A stretch of DNA of 7,885 nucleotides, taken from IMG/VR virus record IMGVR_UViG_2693429508_000009. One strand, written 5' to 3'. Within the stretch, counting starts at the first letter, position 1. Every line of letters starts with the position of its first letter. Positions 2-7,885 of the stretch are shown one piece after another. Below the pieces are notes generated by a model that saw nothing but the letters and a program-made list of their open reading frames with translations, was not told the DNA's origin and searched no databases. This stretch comes from a virus. Lineage: Duplodnaviria; Heunggongvirae; Uroviricota; Caudoviricetes. The translations under genes were made by a program, and so were the position numbers.

Positions 2-250
2 TGCTTAAAAAAAGAACAAATGGTAGTGTCCGCTATTGCCAGTACACCTCATCCATCACCGAAAAAAATTGGCTTTTACACCATTGGCGATAAAAGCATT
101 TACCTGTATGACCTACGCCGCATGGATGAAATCATGGAGGCTCTTGATAATCGTTCGTCGATGGATTGGTGTGTTGCTGTTCATGATATGAATGCAGGGT
201 TTGATGAAAAGATTTTGTTCCCCTCATCAGTTGAAAGCACTGCGGGTTAA
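2..250 (+). CDS. 3' end of a phage early-region protein of unknown function (frame open to the window edge; first in-window ATG at 20)
   Basis: Reading frame is open from position 2 to TAA at 248-250. The stop is followed 10 nt later by the next gene, whose SD (AAGGAG 249-254) overlaps it, i.e. operon-style packing. No family recognised. Confidence 0.4.
   Translation, partial: CLKKEQMVVSAIASTPHPSPKKIGFYTIGDKSIYLYDLRRMDEIMEALDNRSSMDWCVAVHDMNAGFDEKILFPSSVESTAG
21..51. repeat. left copy of a 31-bp perfect inverted repeat (partner 7855-7885)
   Basis: TGGTAGTGTCCGCTATTGCCAGTACACCTCA at 21-51 is the exact reverse complement of 7855-7885. The match stops at 52/7854 on the inside and is cut by the window edge on the outside. 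Confidence 0.9.
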
Positions 251-849: not shown

Positions 850-1060
850 AAACGGTTTGCGGGAAAAGGAGAGTTAAGTAGAATTGCAGCGGGTGCTTGA
901 GGCTATCTGTCTCAGGCATGAACACCAAAAGGCAGATAGAGAAAAGCCCCAGTTAACATTACGCGTCCGGCAAGACGCTTAACATTAATCTGAGGCTCAA
1001 TCTATGAACGGCAAATCTAGGTTAGCCTCTTACGTGCCGAAAGGCAAGGAGAAGCAGGCT

Positions 1061-1216
1061 ATGAAGCAGCAAAAGGCGATGTTAATCGCCCTGATCGTCA
1101 TCTGTTTAACCGTCATAGTGACGGCACTGGTAACGAGGAAAGACCTCTGCGAGGTACGAATTCGAACCGGCCAGACGGAGGTCGCTGTCTTCACAGCTTA
1201 CGAACCTGAGGAGTAA
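1061..1216 (+). CDS. hokD: Hok/Gef-family type I toxin (51 aa small membrane toxin)
   Basis: Translation MKQQKAMLIALIVICLTVIVTALVTRKDLCEVRIRTGQTEVAVFTAYEPEE has the Hok/Gef hallmarks: N-terminal TM helix, TRK(D/S)LCE motif, conserved C-terminal region. It matches my recollection of E. coli HokD/RelF. SD GGAG at 1048-1051. An in-frame upstream ATG at 1004, also with a GAGG SD, would give the 70-aa ORF in the track. Family call is firm; exact paralogue is from memory. Confidence 0.85.
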   Translation: MKQQKAMLIALIVICLTVIVTALVTRKDLCEVRIRTGQTEVAVFTAYEPEE

Positions 1217-3102: not shown

Positions 3103-3483
3103 ATGACCGAGCGCATAGAATTTGTTTTACCTTACCCGCCGACGGTGAACACTTACTGGCGTCGTCGTGGCAGCACATATTTTGTATCAAAAGCCGGGGA
3201 GCGTTATCGCCGGGCAGTGGCGCTTATTGTTCGCCAGCAGCGGCTGAAATTAAGCCTGTCCGGAAGGTTGGCAATAAAAATTATTGCAGAACCACCGGAT
3301 AAGCGCCGCCGTGACCTGGACAATATTCTGAAAGCGCCGCTGGATGCGCTGACGCATGCGGGGTTGCTAATGGACGATGAGCAGTTTGATGAAATCAATA
3401 TCGTTCGTGCTCAGCCAGTATCTGGTGGACGTCTGGGGGTGAAGATTTATCCCATAATGCTTGAAGGGCAGGTCAAAAAATGA
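3103..3483 (+). CDS. rusA: Holliday junction resolvase RusA (copy 1, 126 aa)
   Basis: Translation shows RusA hallmarks: LPYPPTVNTYWRRR near the N-terminus, the acidic RRRDLDN motif, LMDDEQF and GGRLGV. Stop TGA 3481-3483 overlaps the ATG 3480 of a Q-like start. Confidence 0.9.
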   Translation: MTERIEFVLPYPPTVNTYWRRRGSTYFVSKAGERYRRAVALIVRQQRLKLSLSGRLAIKIIAEPPDKRRRDLDNILKAPLDALTHAGLLMDDEQFDEINIVRAQPVSGGRLGVKIYPIMLEGQVKK

Positions 3484-3623
3484 AACTGGAAGATTTACCG
3501 AAATACTACTCCCCAAAATCCCCCGGCCTGACTGATGCATCGGCCTCAACGTCGAAAGATGCGCTGAGTATCACTGATGTGATGGCCGCGCAGGGCATGA
3601 CACAGAATCGGGCTGAGATGGGG
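3480..3623 (+). pseudogene. 5' fragment (48 codons) of a Q-like antiterminator gene, truncated at the single N at 3624; probably a contig end, not a biological truncation
   Basis: MKLEDLPKYYSPKSPGLTDASASTSKDALSITDVMAAQGMTQNRAEMG matches the N-terminus of the complete Q ORF at 4433-5287 with only a few substitutions. The sequence after the N (3625 onward) is unrelated. Confidence 0.6.
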
Positions 3624-3632
3624 NATTAAGAC

Positions 3633-3652
3633 TATCACTTATTTAAGTGATA
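3633..3652. promoter_or_regulatory. 20-bp perfect dyad TATCACTTA-TT-TAAGTGATA, operator-like
   Basis: Arms 3633-3641 and 3644-3652 are exact reverse complements. The TATCAC half-site resembles lambdoid repressor operator half-sites. It sits in non-coding DNA about 170 bp upstream of ORF 3805-4062. Function is inferred only. Confidence 0.35.
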
Positions 3653-3804
3653 CTGGTTGTCTGGAGATTCAGGGGGCCAGTCTACGGACATTTTCTGCCT
3701 GTGGACCAGGAAAGTGCACGGGTGCTTTCCACTCCCATGAAGCCCGGCAATCCGCGCAGATACAGTAATAAACGAACTGACAGCAGTAAGATGGAGCGTT
3801 TCTT

Positions 3805-4062
3805 TTGAACAACCAGACAATGACTTTTACCCCTGAACAATTGCGTAAACACGCGCAGGAAATGCTGCGTCATGCTGAACAACTCGAAAAAACGGGCATA
3901 ACAAAAGACGCTATCCGTAAAGATATGGTACCCGCGCTTCGGGAACTGATGCAGGCGAAGCATCGCGCACAGAAAGCAGTAGATGAGCTGGTGGACTGTG
4001 TGGCAGAGCTGGAAACCAGAGTCGGAAAGTTTGAAAAACTGGTGCAGGAGGTGCTGCGCTGA
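3805..4062 (+). CDS. hypothetical phage protein (85 aa from TTG 3805; 80 aa if ATG 3820), likely helical
   Basis: GGAG at 3793-3796 is 8 nt upstream of TTG 3805. Stop TGA 4060-4062 overlaps ATG 4062 of rusA copy 2 (TGATG coupling). Charged, heptad-like composition. Confidence 0.5.
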   Translation: MNNQTMTFTPEQLRKHAQEMLRHAEQLEKTGITKDAIRKDMVPALRELMQAKHRAQKAVDELVDCVAELETRVGKFEKLVQEVLR

Positions 4063-4436
4063 TGCGCCATGAGTTTATTTTACCTTATCCGCCGACGGTG
4101 AATACTTACTGGCGACGTCGTGACAACACATATTTTGTATCAAAAGCCGGTGAGCGTTATCGCCGGGATGTGGCGCTTATTGTCCGTCAGCAGCGACTGA
4201 AATTAAGCCTGTCCGGAAGACTGGCGATAAAGATTATTGCAGAGCCACCGGATAAGCGCCGTCGTGACCTGGACAATATCCTGAAAGCACCACTGGATGC
4301 ACTGACACATGCGGGAGTGTTAATGGACGATGAGCAGTTTGATGAAATCAATATCGTTCGTGGTCAGCCAGTATCTGGTGGACGTCTGGGGGTGAAGATT
4401 TACCCCATAATGCATGAAGAGCAGGTCAAAAAATGA
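4062..4436 (+). CDS. rusA: Holliday junction resolvase RusA (copy 2, 124 aa)
   Basis: Same RusA motifs as copy 1. By eye roughly 90 percent identical at protein level, with differences clustered at the N-terminus plus scattered substitutions. ATGA overlap with Q at 4433-4436. Confidence 0.9.
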   Translation: MRHEFILPYPPTVNTYWRRRDNTYFVSKAGERYRRDVALIVRQQRLKLSLSGRLAIKIIAEPPDKRRRDLDNILKAPLDALTHAGVLMDDEQFDEINIVRGQPVSGGRLGVKIYPIMHEEQVKK

Positions 4437-5287
4437 AACTGGAAGATTTACCGAAATACTACTCCCCAAAATCCCCTTGCCTGACCGATGCATCGGCCTC
4501 AACGTCAAAAGATGCGCTGAGTATCACTGATGTGATGGCCGCGCAGGGCATGACACAGAATCGGGCTGAGATGGGGGTTTCTGCGTTCCTTGGGAAAATG
4601 GGCATTAGTATGAATGACAGAGAGCGGGCAACAGAATTGCTGACAGAATATGCACTCAGTCGGTGTGATCGCGTGGCGGCGTTAAGAAAACTCCCGGCAG
4701 AAATAAAACCGGCAGTGATGCGTATTATGGCTTCGTATGCGTTTGAAGATTATGCCCGTAGCGCGGCGAGCAAAAAACAGTGCCCCTGCTGTCACGGAAA
4801 AAAATTTATTGAAAGCGAGGTTTTTACAAACAAGATCCAGTATCCGGATGGTAAGCCGCCGGTATGGGCAAAGTGTACGAAAGGTGTGTATCCGTCTTAC
4901 TGGGAAGAATGGAAAAAAGTCAGGGAGGTGGTAAAAGTTGCCTGTCCGGAGTGTGGCGGAAAGGGTGAGGTTTCCACCGCCTGTAAGGATTGCCGTGGGC
5001 GTGGTGTCGCCATTCATCGTGAAGAGTCGGTAAAACGTGGTATGCCTGTTATCAGAGACTGCCAGCGTTGTGGTGGTCGTGGCTATGAAAGACTACCATC
5101 AACGGAGGCATTTAATGCTATATGCGAGGTGACAAACCAGATAACACGCGCGTCATGGGAAAAAACAGTTAAGAAATTTTATGATGCGCTGGTGACCCGG
5201 TTTGATATTGAAGAAGCATGGGCTGAGCGGCAGTTAAAAAAGGTAACTAGGTTGATTTTTCCGGAATCTGTGGTAAATTCGTCATAA
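4433..5287 (+). CDS. Q: late-gene antiterminator Q (lambdoid Q family) with a DnaJ-like cysteine-rich zinc-finger region
   Basis: Positioned directly after rusA and directly before a pR'-like promoter, a terminator and phage tRNAs. N-terminus MKLEDLPKYYSPKSP resembles E. coli prophage Q-like proteins as I recall them. Contains three perfect CxxCxGxG repeats (CPECGGKG, CKDCRGRG, CQRCGGRG) and one degenerate repeat (CPCCHGKK). Confidence 0.75.
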   Translation: MKLEDLPKYYSPKSPCLTDASASTSKDALSITDVMAAQGMTQNRAEMGVSAFLGKMGISMNDRERATELLTEYALSRCDRVAALRKLPAEIKPAVMRIMASYAFEDYARSAASKKQCPCCHGKKFIESEVFTNKIQYPDGKPPVWAKCTKGVYPSYWEEWKKVREVVKVACPECGGKGEVSTACKDCRGRGVAIHREESVKRGMPVIRDCQRCGGRGYERLPSTEAFNAICEVTNQITRASWEKTVKKFYDALVTRFDIEEAWAERQLKKVTRLIFPESVVNSS

Positions 5288-5291
5288 CGAT
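5252..5291 (+). promoter_or_regulatory. candidate late promoter pR' with sigma-dependent pause element (Q utilisation region)
   Basis: TTGATT (5252-5257), 16-nt spacer, TAAATT (5274-5279), then AACGATGGG at 5286-5294. This matches my recollection of the lambda pR' -10 hexamer (TAAATT) and the AACGAT promoter-proximal pause motif. Overlaps the Q stop codon at 5285-5287. Confidence 0.55.
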
Positions 5292-5325
5292 GGGCGTTTT
5301 ATGCCTGACGTTAGAAGAGTTTCTA

Positions 5326-5352
5326 CAACCCGCCGCCGAGCGGGTTTTTTAT
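5326..5352 (+). terminator. rho-independent terminator (tR'-like, the likely target of Q antitermination)
   Basis: Stem CCCGC (5329-5333), loop CGCCGA, GCGGG (5340-5344), extendable by A-T pairs, followed by TTTTTT at 5345-5350. Lies about 40-60 nt downstream of the candidate pR' start and upstream of the tRNAs. Confidence 0.7.
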
Positions 5353-5389
5353 TGCGGAATTAATTACGGACCGTTATTATTCTGCTCCC

Positions 5390-5465
5390 GGCCCTTTAGC
5401 TCAGTGGTGAGAGCGAGCGACTCATAATCGCCAGGTCGCTGGTTCAAATCCAGCAAGGGCCACCA
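5390..5465 (+). tRNA. ileZ: tRNA-Ile (anticodon CAU; presumably lysidine-modified, reads AUA)
   Basis: 76 nt. 7-bp acceptor stem GGCCCTT/AAGGGCC, D-arm AGCTCAGTGGTGAGAGC, anticodon loop CTCATAA, T-arm GGTTCAAATCC, discriminator A plus encoded CCA. Very close to E. coli tRNA-Ile2 (ileX) as recalled. The symbol follows the Stx-phage convention and is not verified. Confidence 0.9.
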
Positions 5466-5565
5466 TCACAAACCGCCATTAGCTTATCAGGAAGAGCAGA
5501 CGACACGATAACAGGGTTGTTGGTGCGGGGGCGGGTCCCCGATGGCGGTCCATTATCGGTATTCA

Positions 5566-5642
5566 GCGTTGTTAGCTCAGCCGGACAGAGCAATTGCCTT
5601 CTAAGCAATCGGTCACTGGTTCGAATCCAGTACAGCGCGCCA
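5566..5642 (+). tRNA. tRNA-Arg (anticodon UCU, reads rare AGA/AGG)
   Basis: 77 nt. Acceptor stem GCGTTGT/ACAGCGC with one G-U pair, anticodon loop CTTCTAA (UCU), T-arm ACTGG-TTCGAAT-CCAGT, discriminator G plus CCA. argN/argO-like, as in Stx phages. Confidence 0.9.
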
Positions 5643-5752
5643 TATTCATTCTTCCAGATTCCTTCCGGCAGAGCCTTATACTGAAATATACCTGGCTCAG
5701 GATATTGTTGAAAATATTTTATGTTTGTCAAAAATAAAAGTTCTGTTAAGTA

Positions 5753-6106
5753 TTGATTGAGTGTTTGTTATACGGTCTAATGGTTTTTTCAGCATTAAAT
5801 ATTTATCATTCATATGGTGTGGGTAGAGTGAATATTGATGAGGCGTCGGGGTGTTTCATCCTTAGGCAGCGTATTGATATAGTCAATGCAGCACGAGCAA
5901 AGGCCTTCAGCCGTTTGACAGTTTTGTTCTGTACTCCTGATCGTCTTTCGGGAAGAGACGTTATTATTCTGAATAGTGATGCTATACAGAGGGTTTGCGA
6001 TGAGTTCATGGTTGCTAATTCAGAATTATTTGCTCTTGTTCAGGAGTACAACAGAATAGCCAGGACCTGTGGTATGGATGAACTTCGGATTACTCATCTG
6101 GGGTAG
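5753..6106 (+). CDS. hypothetical ORF (117 aa from TTG; no convincing SD), possibly a gene remnant in the stx-equivalent cargo slot
   Basis: ORF-track ORF; its 5' part is AT-rich and lacks a ribosome-binding site, while the C-terminal two-thirds has protein-like composition. No family recognised and no resemblance to Stx A or B subunits. Confidence 0.3.
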   Translation: MIECLLYGLMVFSALNIYHSYGVGRVNIDEASGCFILRQRIDIVNAARAKAFSRLTVLFCTPDRLSGRDVIILNSDAIQRVCDEFMVANSELFALVQEYNRIARTCGMDELRITHLG

Positions 6107-6291
6107 ATACATATCTGGATTATCACCTGTTACGGTAAAAAGTGATTGCTTACTGTTTTTGTGAATGGCATTGCAGCAGCCGGATAATGTCAGTGCTGGC
6201 TGACGGTGTGCTGGTGGCGGGTGTGGTGGTTGTTGCTTTCCCGTTGCTGAAAAAGAAAACGCCAGACTGTTAGCCGGGTATCAGTTAGCGG
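6034..6291. repeat. 258-bp exact direct repeat, copy A (ends at the N gap)
   Basis: Identical by eye to 6612-6869; copy A runs into the N run at 6292 and copy B starts right after the 5-N run. This is the pattern of unmerged contig-end overlap in a scaffold. Confidence 0.85.
6187..6273 (+). CDS. possible 28-aa hydrophobic peptide (MSVLADGVLVAGVVVVAFPLLKKKTPDC); a second identical copy at 6765-6851 lies within repeat copy B
   Basis: ATG 6187 to TAG 6271-6273. Hydrophobic core followed by a KKK cluster (single-TM-like). Weak or absent SD; too short for statistical support. Confidence 0.2.
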   Translation: MSVLADGVLVAGVVVVAFPLLKKKTPDC

Positions 6292-6503
6292 NNNNNNNNN
6301 NNNNNNNNNNNNNNNNNNNNNNNNNNNNNNNNNNNNNNNNNNNNNNNNNNNNNNNNNNNNNNNNNNNNNNNNNNNNNNNNNNNNNNNNNNNNNNNNNNNN
6401 NNNNNNNNNNNNNNNNNNNNNNNNNNNNNNNNNNNNNNNNNNNNNNNNNNNNNNNNNNNNNNNNNNNNNNNNNNNNNNNNNNNNNNNNNNNNNNNNNNNN
6501 NNN
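6292..6503. other. assembly gap (run of N); single N at 3624 and 5 N at 6607-6611 are further joins
   Basis: Unresolved bases in the sequence itself. Confidence 0.95.
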
Positions 6504-6577
6504 CCCTTTAGCTCAGTGGTGAGAGCGAGCGACTCATAATCGCCAGGTCGCTGGTTCAAATCCAGCAAGGGCCACCA
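6502..6577 (+). tRNA. second tRNA-Ile(CAU) copy on a small placed fragment (first 2 nt masked by N)
   Basis: 6504-6577 is identical to the tRNA at 5392-5465. The 3' flank (6578-6606) differs from the first copy's flank at three positions, so this is a paralogous copy, probably from another prophage, inserted between the gaps. Confidence 0.7.
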
Positions 6578-6611
6578 TCACATACCGCCATTAGCTCATC
6601 AGGAAANNNNN

Positions 6612-6869
6612 TCTTGTTCAGGAGTACAACAGAATAGCCAGGACCTGTGGTATGGATGAACTTCGGATTACTCATCTGGGGTAGATACATATCTGGATTA
6701 TCACCTGTTACGGTAAAAAGTGATTGCTTACTGTTTTTGTGAATGGCATTGCAGCAGCCGGATAATGTCAGTGCTGGCTGACGGTGTGCTGGTGGCGGGT
6801 GTGGTGGTTGTTGCTTTCCCGTTGCTGAAAAAGAAAACGCCAGACTGTTAGCCGGGTATCAGTTAGCGG
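6612..6869. repeat. 258-bp exact direct repeat, copy B
   Basis: Identical to 6034-6291; unique sequence resumes at 6870. Confidence 0.85.
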
Positions 6870-7076
6870 GAGAAATTTTTAAATACTTCACAATTCAGGC
6901 GGTTGACTGTTGTCTGGTTTGCGGGGAGTTTGTTAAAAGAAACTGGCATGGTGAATCCCCCTGTGCGGAGGGGCAATCAGCGAGTAGGTATATGGGATAA
7001 TCGCGGATTCAGGTGCTGGTACTGAATTCACCGGGAGGCACCCGGCACCATGCAATGGCACATAGCGCCACTCTCC

Positions 7077-7111
7077 AGCCCCTCTCCGGAGGGGCTGTTT
7101 ATATTGATTTT
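7077..7111 (+). terminator. stem-loop with U-rich tail (probable + strand terminator closing the tRNA/cargo transcript)
   Basis: AGCCCCT (7077-7083), loop CTCCGG, AGGGGCT (7090-7096), followed by GTTTATATTGATTTT. Confidence 0.5.
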
Positions 7112-7131
7112 GTCAGATGTGAGTAAACTCC

Positions 7132-7467
7132 TTATGGACTTTGTTGTTTTAGTCCATAAGGACATATTTGCAGAGTGCAACGGTTATTAAAGCATTCATT
7201 CAATACGTTATCTGTATTTGTAGGGCATTCCTGGCTGTTTTTGATTAAATTCCAGAATGTTTTATTGAATGGTACTACGTTGTAAATGGTTACAGGTAGC
7301 ACTTTGTTATTGAGCATGATGCCTGTGTGAGTCAGTGTAAATATACTTTCAGGAGGTAAGAAAGCATCCGATTGATACCAGATTATTAATTTTATTTTAC
7401 TCCATATGACTGAAAAAGATATTCCGCATGATGGCTGGATAACTGTATCAATCACAATCCACTTCAT
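7132..7467 (-). CDS. hypothetical 111-aa protein encoded in AT-rich DNA (moron-like); five Cys, four of them in the C-terminal third
   Basis: Minus-strand ORF with SD AAGGA 6 nt upstream of its ATG (plus 7465-7467). AT-rich DNA is stop-codon-rich, so a 111-codon ORF here is unlikely by chance. A 270-bp AT-rich upstream region (7468-7727) and hairpins at its 3' end (7130-7161) fit an autonomous transcription unit. Family not recognised. Confidence 0.4.
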
Positions 7468-7727
7468 TTAGTTTCCTTGTTTATGCCTTGCTGGTGATGT
7501 TCTGAAAAGTATAAATGATATTTTTGAATGTAAACCATAGAGCAGAATTATTTTTCTGATGTTGTTTATTGTTTATTTAAATGCAGGGTGGTTTATATCT
7601 CGTCTTGTAGTTTATCCATGCATATCTGCTTGATAATCAGGTTTTTATTTAAGGTATGGTTTTGTGTTTTTTCTGTATTACATGTCAGGTATTTTAAAGA
7701 ATTATTTTTCAGATGGTGGAAAGAACC

Positions 7728-7885
7728 ATGGCATTTAAACACTATGATGTTGTCAGGGCGGCGCCGCCGTCAGATCTTGCGGAAAAGCTGACACATAAAC
7801 TGAAAGAGGGCTGGCAGCCGTTTGGTAGTCCGGTGGCCATAACCCCTTATACCCTGAGGTGTACTGGCAATAGCGGACACTACCA
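7728..7885 (+). CDS. 5' end of a phage protein of unknown function (MAFKHYDVVRAAPPSDLAEKLTHKLKEGWQPFGSPVAITPYTL...), runs off the window
   Basis: ATG 7728 with GGTGGA 8 nt upstream; frame open to the window end (52 codons); normal-GC composition resumes here. Resembles small conserved proteins found near lysis cassettes in E. coli prophages, from memory only. Confidence 0.55.
   Translation, partial: MAFKHYDVVRAAPPSDLAEKLTHKLKEGWQPFGSPVAITPYTLRCTGNSGHY
7855..7885. repeat. right copy of the 31-bp inverted repeat (partner 21-51)
   Basis: See partner entry; this copy lies inside the coding sequence of the gene starting at 7728. Confidence 0.9.

What the first reader, a model, noticed from the sequence alone, without database searches (positions are those of the whole stretch)
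5643..7727. The stx-equivalent cargo slot downstream of Q-pR'-tR'-tRNAs holds unassigned, lower-GC ORFs instead of a toxin operon
In Stx phages the Q - pR' - tR' - ileZ/argN/argO module is followed directly by stxAB, so whatever sits there is expressed at high level under Q control during induction. Here the same module is followed by about 2 kb of visibly AT-richer DNA with no Stx-like reading frame. It carries a 117-aa ORF without an SD, a 28-aa hydrophobic peptide ORF, a terminator-like hairpin at 7077-7111, and a divergently oriented 111-aa ORF. Cargo in this slot is a classic moron position and the best place in this window for an undescribed late-expressed function (virulence, defence or superinfection exclusion).
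Basis: partly seen in the sequence, partly recalled or inferred. Interest (0 to 1): 0.6.

Follow-up and report, generated by a model that had tools for sequence, protein, structure and literature searches.

The report
Known prophage cassette: iraL, STnc100, small genes
The "empty toxin slot" of this E. coli prophage holds an already described accessory cassette, chiefly the stress-regulator gene iraL and a known small RNA, so it is ordinary apart from one small conserved gene of unknown function.

Summary
The ORFs, the hairpin, the lower G+C and the absence of stx are all real. The region is not 2.1 kb of unassigned cargo.

Window 6292-6869 is a scaffolding artefact: N runs, a stray tRNA copy and a perfect 258-nt duplicate. 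Finished genomes run straight from 6291 to 6870, which leaves about 1.5 kb.

- **111-aa ORF (7132-7467, minus strand):** 111/111 identical to IraL of E. coli CFT073. IraL is a characterised RssB anti-adaptor that stabilises RpoS and has its own sigma-70 promoter.
- **Hairpin at 7077-7111:** the terminator of an STnc100-family sRNA (6917-7106; Rfam 132 bits).
- **"28-aa" peptide:** a 43-aa DUF3927 protein.
- **"117-aa ORF":** a conserved 92-aa gene (5828-6106, phrog_2873) with dN/dS about 0.26 and no known function. PGAP left it unannotated in the copies examined.

Comparison with a Stx2a phage shows that STnc100 and an iraL/iraM-like gene also sit just right of stx2B. Only about 660 nt (orf92 and DUF3927) actually replace stxAB.

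The cassette occurs in about 21% of complete E. coli genomes. Verdict: already known, low interest. The residual question is what orf92 does.

The parts
4433..5287 (+). Q-family late antiterminator (context, left flank)
   Evidence: Matches PF03589 at 179 bits and has a DnaJ-type CxxCxGxG zinc finger. Annotated 'antitermination protein' in 042, strain 64 and CFT073.
5252..5279 (+). pR'-like promoter: TTGATT, 16-nt spacer, TAAATT preceded by TGg (inferred)
   Evidence: Read directly from the sequence. It falls below the scan's 9/12 threshold. It resembles lambda pR' (TTGACT-17-TAAATT) as I recall it from memory. This is an inference only.
5327..5353 (+). tR'-like intrinsic terminator
   Evidence: Stem of 7 pairs followed by TTTTTTATT.
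5390..5465 (+). tRNA with CAT anticodon (ileZ-type; PGAP calls it tRNA-Ile)
   Evidence: PGAP annotates tRNA-Ile at the same place.
5473..5549 (+). Degenerate argN-type tRNA remnant
   Evidence: Acceptor and T-arm ends are conserved, but the D and anticodon region is replaced relative to CFT073 and the Stx2a phage tRNA-Arg(TCG). Neither ARAGORN nor Rfam calls it here.
5566..5642 (+). tRNA-Arg (TCT), argO-type
   Evidence: - phrog_2873 at 194.8 bits.
- In-frame, indel-free homologues at 59-63% aa identity in EC581 (annotated by PGAP there) and in 2014C-3338.
- dN/dS 0.26-0.27, against about 1.1 in shifted frames.
- AF2 pLDDT 86; helix, beta-hairpin, helix.
- No Pfam, NCBIfam, PADLOC, PDB or BFVD assignment.
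6142..6273 (+).
   Evidence: PF13064 at 95.6 bits against a cutoff of 25. phrog_1470 'TciB-like'. PGAP product WP_000562553.1 is 100% identical.
6292..6869 (.). Scaffolding artefact: N runs, a stray tRNA-Ile fragment and an exact duplicate of 6034-6291
   Evidence: Window 6504-6606 is 100% identical to the CFT073 tRNA-Ile region, whereas the window's own first copy is 98% identical to it.
6917..7106 (+). STnc100-family sRNA gene, including its terminator hairpin at 7076-7097
   Evidence: RF02076 at 132.4 bits (gathering score 47), covering model positions 1-206 of 206. Terminator found.
7132..7467 (-). iraL, an RssB anti-adaptor
   Evidence: 111/111 aa identical to CFT073 IraL, WP_000871291.1 / c1429. 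NCBIfam NF007393 at 162 bits against a cutoff of 121. Matches IraM in PDB entry 8twd at E 9e-32.
7468..7540 (-). iraL 5' UTR (33 nt; start site at 7500) and sigma-70 promoter (-10 TATACT, -35 TTTACA)
   Evidence: The 5'-RACE sequence in PMC4045071 matches the window at 31 of 32 positions and places the start at 7500.
7728..7857 (+). N-terminal part of the DUF1737 gene (right flank; precedes the holin in finished genomes)
   Evidence: PF08410 at 57.9 bits. Context shown.

Best explanation
The region is the accessory cassette of a widespread lambdoid prophage of the CFT073 potB-island type, read from a badly scaffolded draft. Once the 578-nt artefact is removed, about 1.5 kb lies between tRNA-Arg and DUF1737. 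It contains four features.

1. **iraL (minus strand).** It is transcribed from its own sigma-70 promoter in the lysogen. IraL binds the adaptor RssB and stops it delivering sigma-S to ClpXP. That raises RpoS during exponential growth, which is a lysogenic-conversion function. This was shown experimentally for the identical CFT073 protein and is inferred for this copy.
2. **An STnc100-family sRNA (plus strand).** It ends in its own Rho-independent terminator. Its family membership is shown here; its targets are unknown.
3. **orf92 and a 43-aa DUF3927 membrane peptide (plus strand).** Both lie downstream of pR'-tR' and the tRNAs. RNA polymerase modified by Q would therefore transcribe them during induction, and would then run antisense across iraL. 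This step is inferred. These two small genes are the only segment that truly occupies the stxAB position.

I commit to orf92 being a real, soluble helical-hairpin late accessory protein, and to DUF3927 being a single-pass membrane peptide. The biochemical role of each is unknown.
For: - **Artefact and true order:**
- **IraL identity:** 111/111 to CFT073, with the same neighbours in CFT073, 042 and strain 64. NCBIfam NF007393 at 162 bits. IraM-RssB structure 8twd matched at E 9e-32. The published 5'-RACE start maps to 7500.
- **IraL function:** sigma-S levels and half-life, and RssB binding, are reported in PMC4045071.
- **STnc100:**
- **DUF3927:**
- **orf92 is coding:**. A 39%-identical homologue lies between the tRNAs and the TerB-like/holin/endolysin genes of a Citrobacter braakii prophage.
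- **Boundaries against a Stx2a phage:** left homology ends at 5650. Right homology starts at 6888, which is 46 nt after the stx2B stop. That phage has STnc100 75 nt after stx2B, followed by an iraL/iraM-like gene.
- **Prevalence:** 1,183 and 1,133 of 5,426 complete genomes carry at least 80% of the two halves.
Against: - No expression data exist for this copy.
- The window-type orf92 has only a weak Shine-Dalgarno sequence (GGGTAGA, against AGGAGTAGA in EC581).
- PGAP lists no feature over the orf92 interval in any window-type record listed, nor in the three genomes examined.
- The two contigs carrying the left and right halves overlap by only 258 nt. Their linkage in this particular genome is inferred from other genomes.
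- The window as a whole is not collinear with any complete genome.
- The pR' assignment is by eye only.
Confidence: 0.88

Rival explanations
1. One reading: the slot carries an undescribed late-expressed function (virulence, defence or exclusion) that replaces the toxin under Q control.
For: orf92 and DUF3927 lie on the late strand in exactly the stxAB position. orf92 is under purifying selection. orf92 has no functional assignment in any library or fold search.
Against: - The largest and best-conserved cargo, iraL, is characterised, on the opposite strand and driven by its own promoter.
- STnc100 and an iraL-like gene coexist with stx2 in Stx2 phages.
- No PADLOC defence model matches.
- orf92 and DUF3927 occur separately in other prophages, so they do not form an obligate pair.
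- Both families are already catalogued, as phrog_2873 and PF13064.
Confidence: 0.15
2. The ORFs are decayed fragments with no intact coding capacity, left over from a dead prophage.
For: PGAP lists no feature over the orf92 interval in any window-type record listed. The argN-type tRNA is degenerate. DUF1737 is annotated as partial in 042, strain 64 and CFT073. PGAP calls a pseudo-CDS over the sRNA.
Against: - iraL is intact and identical to a functional allele.
- orf92 has dN/dS of 0.26 and no indels across three lineages at 67-72% nt identity.
- DUF3927 is 100% identical across the genomes examined.
- The STnc100 match covers the full model with compensatory changes in the terminator stem.
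- The cassette also occurs in deposited phage records: vB_EcoS-640R1 carries the iraL half, and mEp460_ev081 carries the orf92/DUF3927 half with a truncated STnc100.
Confidence: 0.04
3. The whole arrangement is an assembly chimera of unrelated contigs and says nothing about a real locus.
For: The window has N runs, exact duplicates, a stray tRNA copy from a second prophage, an IS-end-like join at 3624-3684 and a 31-nt inverted repeat at the window ends. No complete genome is collinear with the whole window.
Against: Each half (4059-6291 and 6612-7857) is collinear with finished genomes. The halves overlap perfectly by 258 nt. The same order, Q, tRNAs, orf92, DUF3927, STnc100, iraL, DUF1737, is present in CFT073, 042 and strain 64, and more than 1,100 complete genomes carry each half.
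Confidence: 0.06

Closest known systems
IraL of uropathogenic E. coli CFT073 (c1429; Hryckowian et al. 2014, PMC4045071)
   Same: The protein is 111/111 identical. The flanking genes are the same (DUF3927 on one side, DUF1737 on the other). The 5' UTR and start site match at 31 of 32 nt.
   Different: Nothing of substance differs. CFT073 has an IS200 between Q and the tRNAs and an intact argN-type tRNA.
IraM of E. coli K-12 (b1160, next to e14) and RssC of Salmonella
   Same: Same NCBIfam family (NF007393). 62% aa identity to IraM. Matches the IraM chain of the IraM-RssB crystal structure 8twd.
   Different: Similarity is limited to the coding sequence. IraM is induced by Mg2+ starvation, whereas IraL acts in exponential phase and contacts RssB differently (PMC4045071, PMC10844676).
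The stx2AB / STnc100 (EcOnc27) / iraM-like / nanS-p region of Stx2a phages (e.g. Stx2_EH2246, LC567837)
   Same: Same order: tRNAs, cargo, STnc100, minus-strand ira gene, then DUF1737/esterase N-terminus. About 70% nt identity from 46 nt after stx2B onward. The tRNA block is 88% identical.
   Different: stx2AB (1,368 nt) is replaced by orf92 and DUF3927 (about 660 nt). The phage Ira protein is 107 aa and is 73% identical to IraL and 65% to IraM. The Q gene is of a different type.
Rfam RF02076 STnc100 / PasD sRNA family (Zhu, Shabalina and Storz 2026 preprint)
   Same: Full-length covariance-model match with the terminal hairpin. The location is in the prophage late region, next to Q, esterase and lysis genes.
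   Different: The central variable loop is shorter than in the Stx2 copy. Targets and seed region are unknown for this variant.
PF13064 DUF3927 / phrog_1470 'TciB-like'
   Same: Strong HMM matches. Small protein with one hydrophobic helix and a basic tail.
   Different: The PHROG label is annotation by homology only. No function was tested here or found in the literature I searched.

Membership tests
IraM/IraL/RssC RssB anti-adaptors (NCBIfam NF007393) | Whole-protein HMM score above the curated cutoff | tested here: met
   162 bits against a cutoff of 121, covering residues 1-110.
IraM/IraL/RssC RssB anti-adaptors (NCBIfam NF007393) | Identity to an experimentally characterised member | tested here: met
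   111/111 identical to CFT073 IraL. 66 of 107 aligned residues (62%) identical to K-12 IraM. E 9e-32 to IraM in PDB 8twd.
IraM/IraL/RssC RssB anti-adaptors (NCBIfam NF007393) | iraL-type promoter, start site and genomic context | tested here: met
   The published 5'-RACE sequence maps to window 7500 on the minus strand, with TATACT as the -10 element. Neighbours are the same as in the CFT073 potB prophage.
IraM/IraL/RssC RssB anti-adaptors (NCBIfam NF007393) | Binds RssB and lengthens the sigma-S half-life | not testable with these tools
   Shown for the identical protein in PMC4045071.
STnc100 sRNA (Rfam RF02076) | Covariance-model score above the gathering threshold over the full model | tested here: met
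   132.4 bits against 47, covering model positions 1-206 of 206.
STnc100 sRNA (Rfam RF02076) | 3' Rho-independent terminator | tested here: met
   Stem at 7076-7097 with 9 pairs, 7 of them G-C, followed by TTTATATT. Compensatory changes occur in other copies.
STnc100 sRNA (Rfam RF02076) | Discrete Hfq-associated transcript | not testable with these tools
   Reported for the Stx2-phage copy (EcOnc27/sRNA103), as cited in PMC12711010.
DUF3927 (PF13064) | Pfam score above the gathering threshold | tested here: met
   95.6 bits against 25, covering residues 2-43.
Shiga toxin operon (stxA/stxB) | A- and B-subunit reading frames downstream of the tRNAs | tested here: not met
   Window 5651-6887 shows no similarity to stx2AB of L005 (2801-4168). 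No Pfam toxin domain was found.
Moron (independently transcribed accessory gene in a phage late region) | Own promoter and terminator, atypical composition, and presence or absence between otherwise collinear phages | tested here: met
   - iraL has its own mapped start site.
- G+C is 0.31-0.39 against about 0.50 in the flanks.
- mEp460_ev081 shares the left half but carries a TolA-like gene instead of iraL.
- No separate terminator for iraL was demonstrated.
phrog_2873 (orf92) | HMM match and evidence that the frame is coding | tested here: met
   194.8 bits. dN/dS 0.26-0.27, no indels, and twice as many third-position changes. The function of the family is unknown.
Known anti-phage defence systems (PADLOC) | Match of any cargo protein to a defence model | tested here: not met
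   No families matched orf92, DUF3927 or IraL.

The most novel reading that the evidence does not exclude
orf92 (5828-6106) is a functional, Q-dependent late gene. PGAP lists no feature over it in any window-type record listed, and the interval is carried by about 1,180 complete E. coli genomes. It sits in exactly the position that stxAB occupies in Stx phages. STnc100 copies, which are single here, double in vB_EcoS-640R1 and six-fold in strain 2014C-3338, may act as portable terminator and recombination joints through which such cargo, including stx, is exchanged. In addition, late read-through antisense to iraL would switch off the lysogen's RpoS-stabilising function on induction.
Probability: 0.3. 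Interest if true: 0.45.

Novelty: already known. Interest (0 to 1): 0.2.

Why it matters
The practical value is corrective. The apparent "mystery cargo" is the characterised RpoS-stabilising gene iraL, a catalogued sRNA and a Pfam DUF, read from a mis-scaffolded draft.

Three smaller points could interest phage and E. coli specialists:
- A conserved 92-aa gene under purifying selection has no feature listed over it in any window-type record listed, although about a fifth of complete E. coli genomes carry the interval.
- Stx2a phages carry a third iraL/iraM-type gene directly behind stx2B and STnc100. This links toxin phages to RpoS control.
- Homology breakpoints between related phages fall at or in STnc100, which suggests it marks the edges of exchangeable cargo.

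None of these points was tested experimentally here.

Tried and rejected
- **orf92 function.** Pfam, NCBIfam and PADLOC scans gave nothing. PDB sequence-profile searches, Foldseek against PDB and Foldseek against BFVD gave only non-significant helical-hairpin matches with E above 0.1. The afdb50 library was unavailable.
- **orf92 relatives.** An exhaustive HMM search of 1.84 billion representatives found only 19, so no informative distant homologue exists.
- **The search for related loci.** P0026 found nothing in viral contigs. P0025 gave one Citrobacter locus.
- **orf92 plus DUF3927 as an obligate two-gene module.** Considered, for example as a toxin-antitoxin pair, and rejected. EC581 and 2014C-3338 have orf92 without DUF3927. 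vB_EcoS-640R1 has a DUF3927 remnant without orf92.
- **The PGAP minus-strand pseudo-CDS over window 6936-7061.** Rejected as a gene because it lies inside the STnc100 match.
- **A Trp-leader hit at 5247-5353.** It scores 25.7 bits, below gathering, and reflects only the tR' hairpin.
- **The promoter scan.** It found no more sites than shuffled sequence (7 against 5.8 expected), so it was not used as evidence.
Full report
**What is in the sequence.**
- A Q-family antiterminator lies at 4433-5287 (PF03589, 179 bits).
- A strong intrinsic terminator lies at 5327-5346 followed by a T run.
- A CAT-anticodon tRNA, which PGAP calls tRNA-Ile in finished genomes, lies at 5390-5465. tRNA-Arg(TCT) lies at 5566-5642.
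- By eye, TTGATT-16-TGgTAAATT at 5252-5279 could be pR'. This is only an inference.
- Downstream, G+C drops from about 0.50 to 0.31-0.45.
- The listed ORFs and the hairpin exist.
- No Stx-like frame is present.

**The gap region is an artefact.**
- Window 6034-6291 is repeated exactly at 6612-6869.
- Window 6504-6605 is a second copy of the tRNA-Ile region, sitting between N runs.
- In E. coli 042, strain 64 and CFT073 the sequence runs without interruption from the equivalent of 6291 to 6870.
- The stray tRNA fragment is 100% identical to the CFT073 copy, while the window's own first copy is 98% identical to it. It probably comes from a second prophage in the same genome.

The true interval from tRNA-Arg to DUF1737 is about 1,508 nt, not 2,085.

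The window as a whole is a chimeric scaffold. No complete genome is collinear with it; the best hit covers 88% in seven pieces.

**The 111-aa ORF is iraL.** Its product is 111/111 identical to WP_000871291.1 of CFT073. That protein is IraL (c1429). Hryckowian et al. (PMC4045071) showed the following:
- IraL binds RssB.
- IraL raises the level and half-life of sigma-S in exponential phase.
- iraL lies on the potB island, which the annotation shows to be a lambdoid prophage.
- iraL is transcribed from a sigma-70 promoter.

Their 5'-RACE sequence matches the window at 31 of 32 positions. It puts the start site at 7500 on the minus strand, with TATACT as the -10 element.

The protein scores 162 bits on NCBIfam NF007393, against a cutoff of 121. 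It is 62% identical to K-12 IraM. It matches the IraM chain of the IraM-RssB crystal structure 8twd at E 9e-32.

Later work reports higher iraL expression in a fur mutant and after a shift to 37 C.

**The hairpin is an sRNA terminator.** Window 6917-7106 on the plus strand matches Rfam STnc100 (RF02076) at 132.4 bits, against a gathering score of 47, over the whole model. The hairpin at 7076-7097 is the model's terminal stem.

STnc100 is a known prophage sRNA family related to PasD. A copy 75 nt downstream of stx2B has been noted in Stx2 phages, where it overlaps the Hfq-bound sRNA EcOnc27.

PGAP's 126-nt minus-strand pseudo-CDS at the corresponding place in 042, strain 64 and CFT073 lies inside this sRNA. 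It is best disregarded.

**The small peptide.** The 28-aa hydrophobic ORF is the C-terminal part of a 43-aa DUF3927 protein that starts at GTG 6142 (PF13064, 95.6 bits). It also matches phrog_1470, labelled 'TciB-like'. It is 100% identical in CFT073, 042 and strain 64.

**The 117-aa ORF.** No library names it, and PGAP lists no feature over this interval in any window-type record listed. It is nevertheless a real gene in a shorter form.
- Diverged copies in strain EC581 (annotated there as a 92-aa hypothetical protein) and in strain 2014C-3338 keep the frame from GTG 5828 to the same stop. They have no indels at 67-72% nt and 59-63% aa identity.
- Nei-Gojobori dN/dS is 0.26-0.27 in frame, against about 1.1 in the shifted frames. 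Third-position changes are twice as frequent as changes at the other positions.
- It matches phrog_2873 at 194.8 bits.
- The family is tiny. An exhaustive HMM search found 19 representatives among 1.84 billion proteins.
- A 39%-identical member in Citrobacter braakii also lies between prophage tRNAs and a TerB-like gene, a holin and an endolysin.
- AlphaFold gives a confident model (pLDDT 86) of helix, beta-hairpin, helix. Neither PDB nor BFVD returns a significant fold match.
- The Shine-Dalgarno sequence is good in EC581 (AGGAG) but weak in the window lineage. Present-day expression is therefore uncertain.

**Position relative to stx.** I aligned the de-duplicated window with Stx2a phage Stx2_EH2246.
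- Left homology ends at 5650, just after the last tRNA.
- Right homology resumes at 6888, which is 46 nt after the stx2B stop.
- In that phage STnc100 lies 75 nt after stx2B.
- STnc100 is followed immediately by a minus-strand 107-aa gene annotated iraM. Its product is 73% identical to IraL and 65% to IraM.

STnc100 and the ira gene are therefore conserved right-hand neighbours of the slot. Only about 660 nt, carrying orf92 and DUF3927, stand where stx2AB stands.

Breakpoints in other phages fall at the same element.
- Phage mEp460_ev081 is 98.8% identical up to window 7054, inside STnc100. It then carries a TolA-like gene instead of iraL.
- vB_EcoS-640R1 has two STnc100 copies.
- Strain 2014C-3338 has six STnc100 copies.

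This suggests, but does not prove, that STnc100 serves as a joint for cargo exchange.

**How it most likely works.**
- *Shown elsewhere for the identical protein.* IraL made from its own promoter in the lysogen sequesters RssB and stabilises RpoS.
- *Shown here.* The family memberships, the gene order and the evidence that orf92 is coding.
- *Inferred.* orf92 and DUF3927 are read from pR' by Q-modified polymerase on induction. That transcription continues through the STnc100 terminator and runs antisense to iraL.
- *Unknown.* The biochemical roles of orf92, DUF3927 and this STnc100 variant.

**Prevalence and verdict.** At least 80% of each half of the cassette is present in 1,183 and 1,133 of 5,426 complete E. 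coli genomes. The finding is a correct recognition of the moron slot, but its contents are already known. The interest is low. The only open item is the small orf92 family.

Noticed in passing
window 3104-3684: There is a second RusA gene plus the first 49 codons of Q, about 92% identical to the copy at 4062-4580. It ends at a single N (3624). About 60 nt follow that look like an insertion-sequence terminus; I recognise it from memory as an IS2 end. A query spanning it hits 25,119 places, 3,499 of them on plasmids. This is probably a contig break at a repeat rather than a real tandem duplication.
   Followed up: partly
window 21-51 and 7855-7885: A perfect 31-nt inverted repeat joins the two ends of the window. 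Homology to finished genomes stops at 7857. The last 28 nt are probably an assembly or graph artefact and not part of the DUF1737 gene.
   Followed up: partly
window 891-1216: A hok/sok-type type I toxin-antitoxin locus is present. The sok RNA scores 112 bits at 891-1066. A 70-aa Hok-like ORF lies at 1004-1216. The locus is annotated hokD in related prophages. A sub-threshold isrK hit (25.7 bits) lies just downstream at 1225-1306.
   Followed up: no
window 5473-5549: The middle tRNA of the ileZ-argN-argO trio is degenerate here, as it is in E. coli 042. The acceptor and T-arm ends are kept, but the D and anticodon region is replaced. CFT073 and the Stx2a phage keep an intact tRNA-Arg(TCG).
   Followed up: yes
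L005 4421-4744 (Stx2a phage Stx2_EH2246); similar rows: Several deposited Stx2a phages carry an intact 107-aa iraM/iraL-type gene directly behind stx2B and STnc100. It is 73% identical to IraL and 65% to IraM, so it looks like a third subtype. The published iraL and iraM matches all shared at least 95% identity with their query (PMC4045071), so this subtype may not have been scored as either gene. Whether it binds RssB is untested.
   Followed up: partly
L009 1167-1379 and 3139-4118; L007 3570-3763 and 4039-4227: STnc100 occurs as multiple copies in some prophages. Strain 2014C-3338 has four head-to-tail copies plus two more. vB_EcoS-640R1 has two copies. All copies share an invariant motif (TTGTTAAAA...GCATGGTGAATCCCCC) and a variable central loop.
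   Followed up: partly
window 6936-7061 (- strand), equivalent to L002 8325-8450: PGAP annotates a 126-nt 'hypothetical protein, partial' pseudogene on the minus strand in 042, strain 64 and CFT073. It lies entirely inside the STnc100 sRNA match and is probably a spurious CDS call.
   Followed up: yes
L004 6681-7004 (K-12 iraM): K-12 iraM shares only its coding sequence, at about 71% nt identity, with the window. Neither flank is similar. iraM and iraL therefore sit in unrelated contexts, as the 2014 paper stated.
   Followed up: yes
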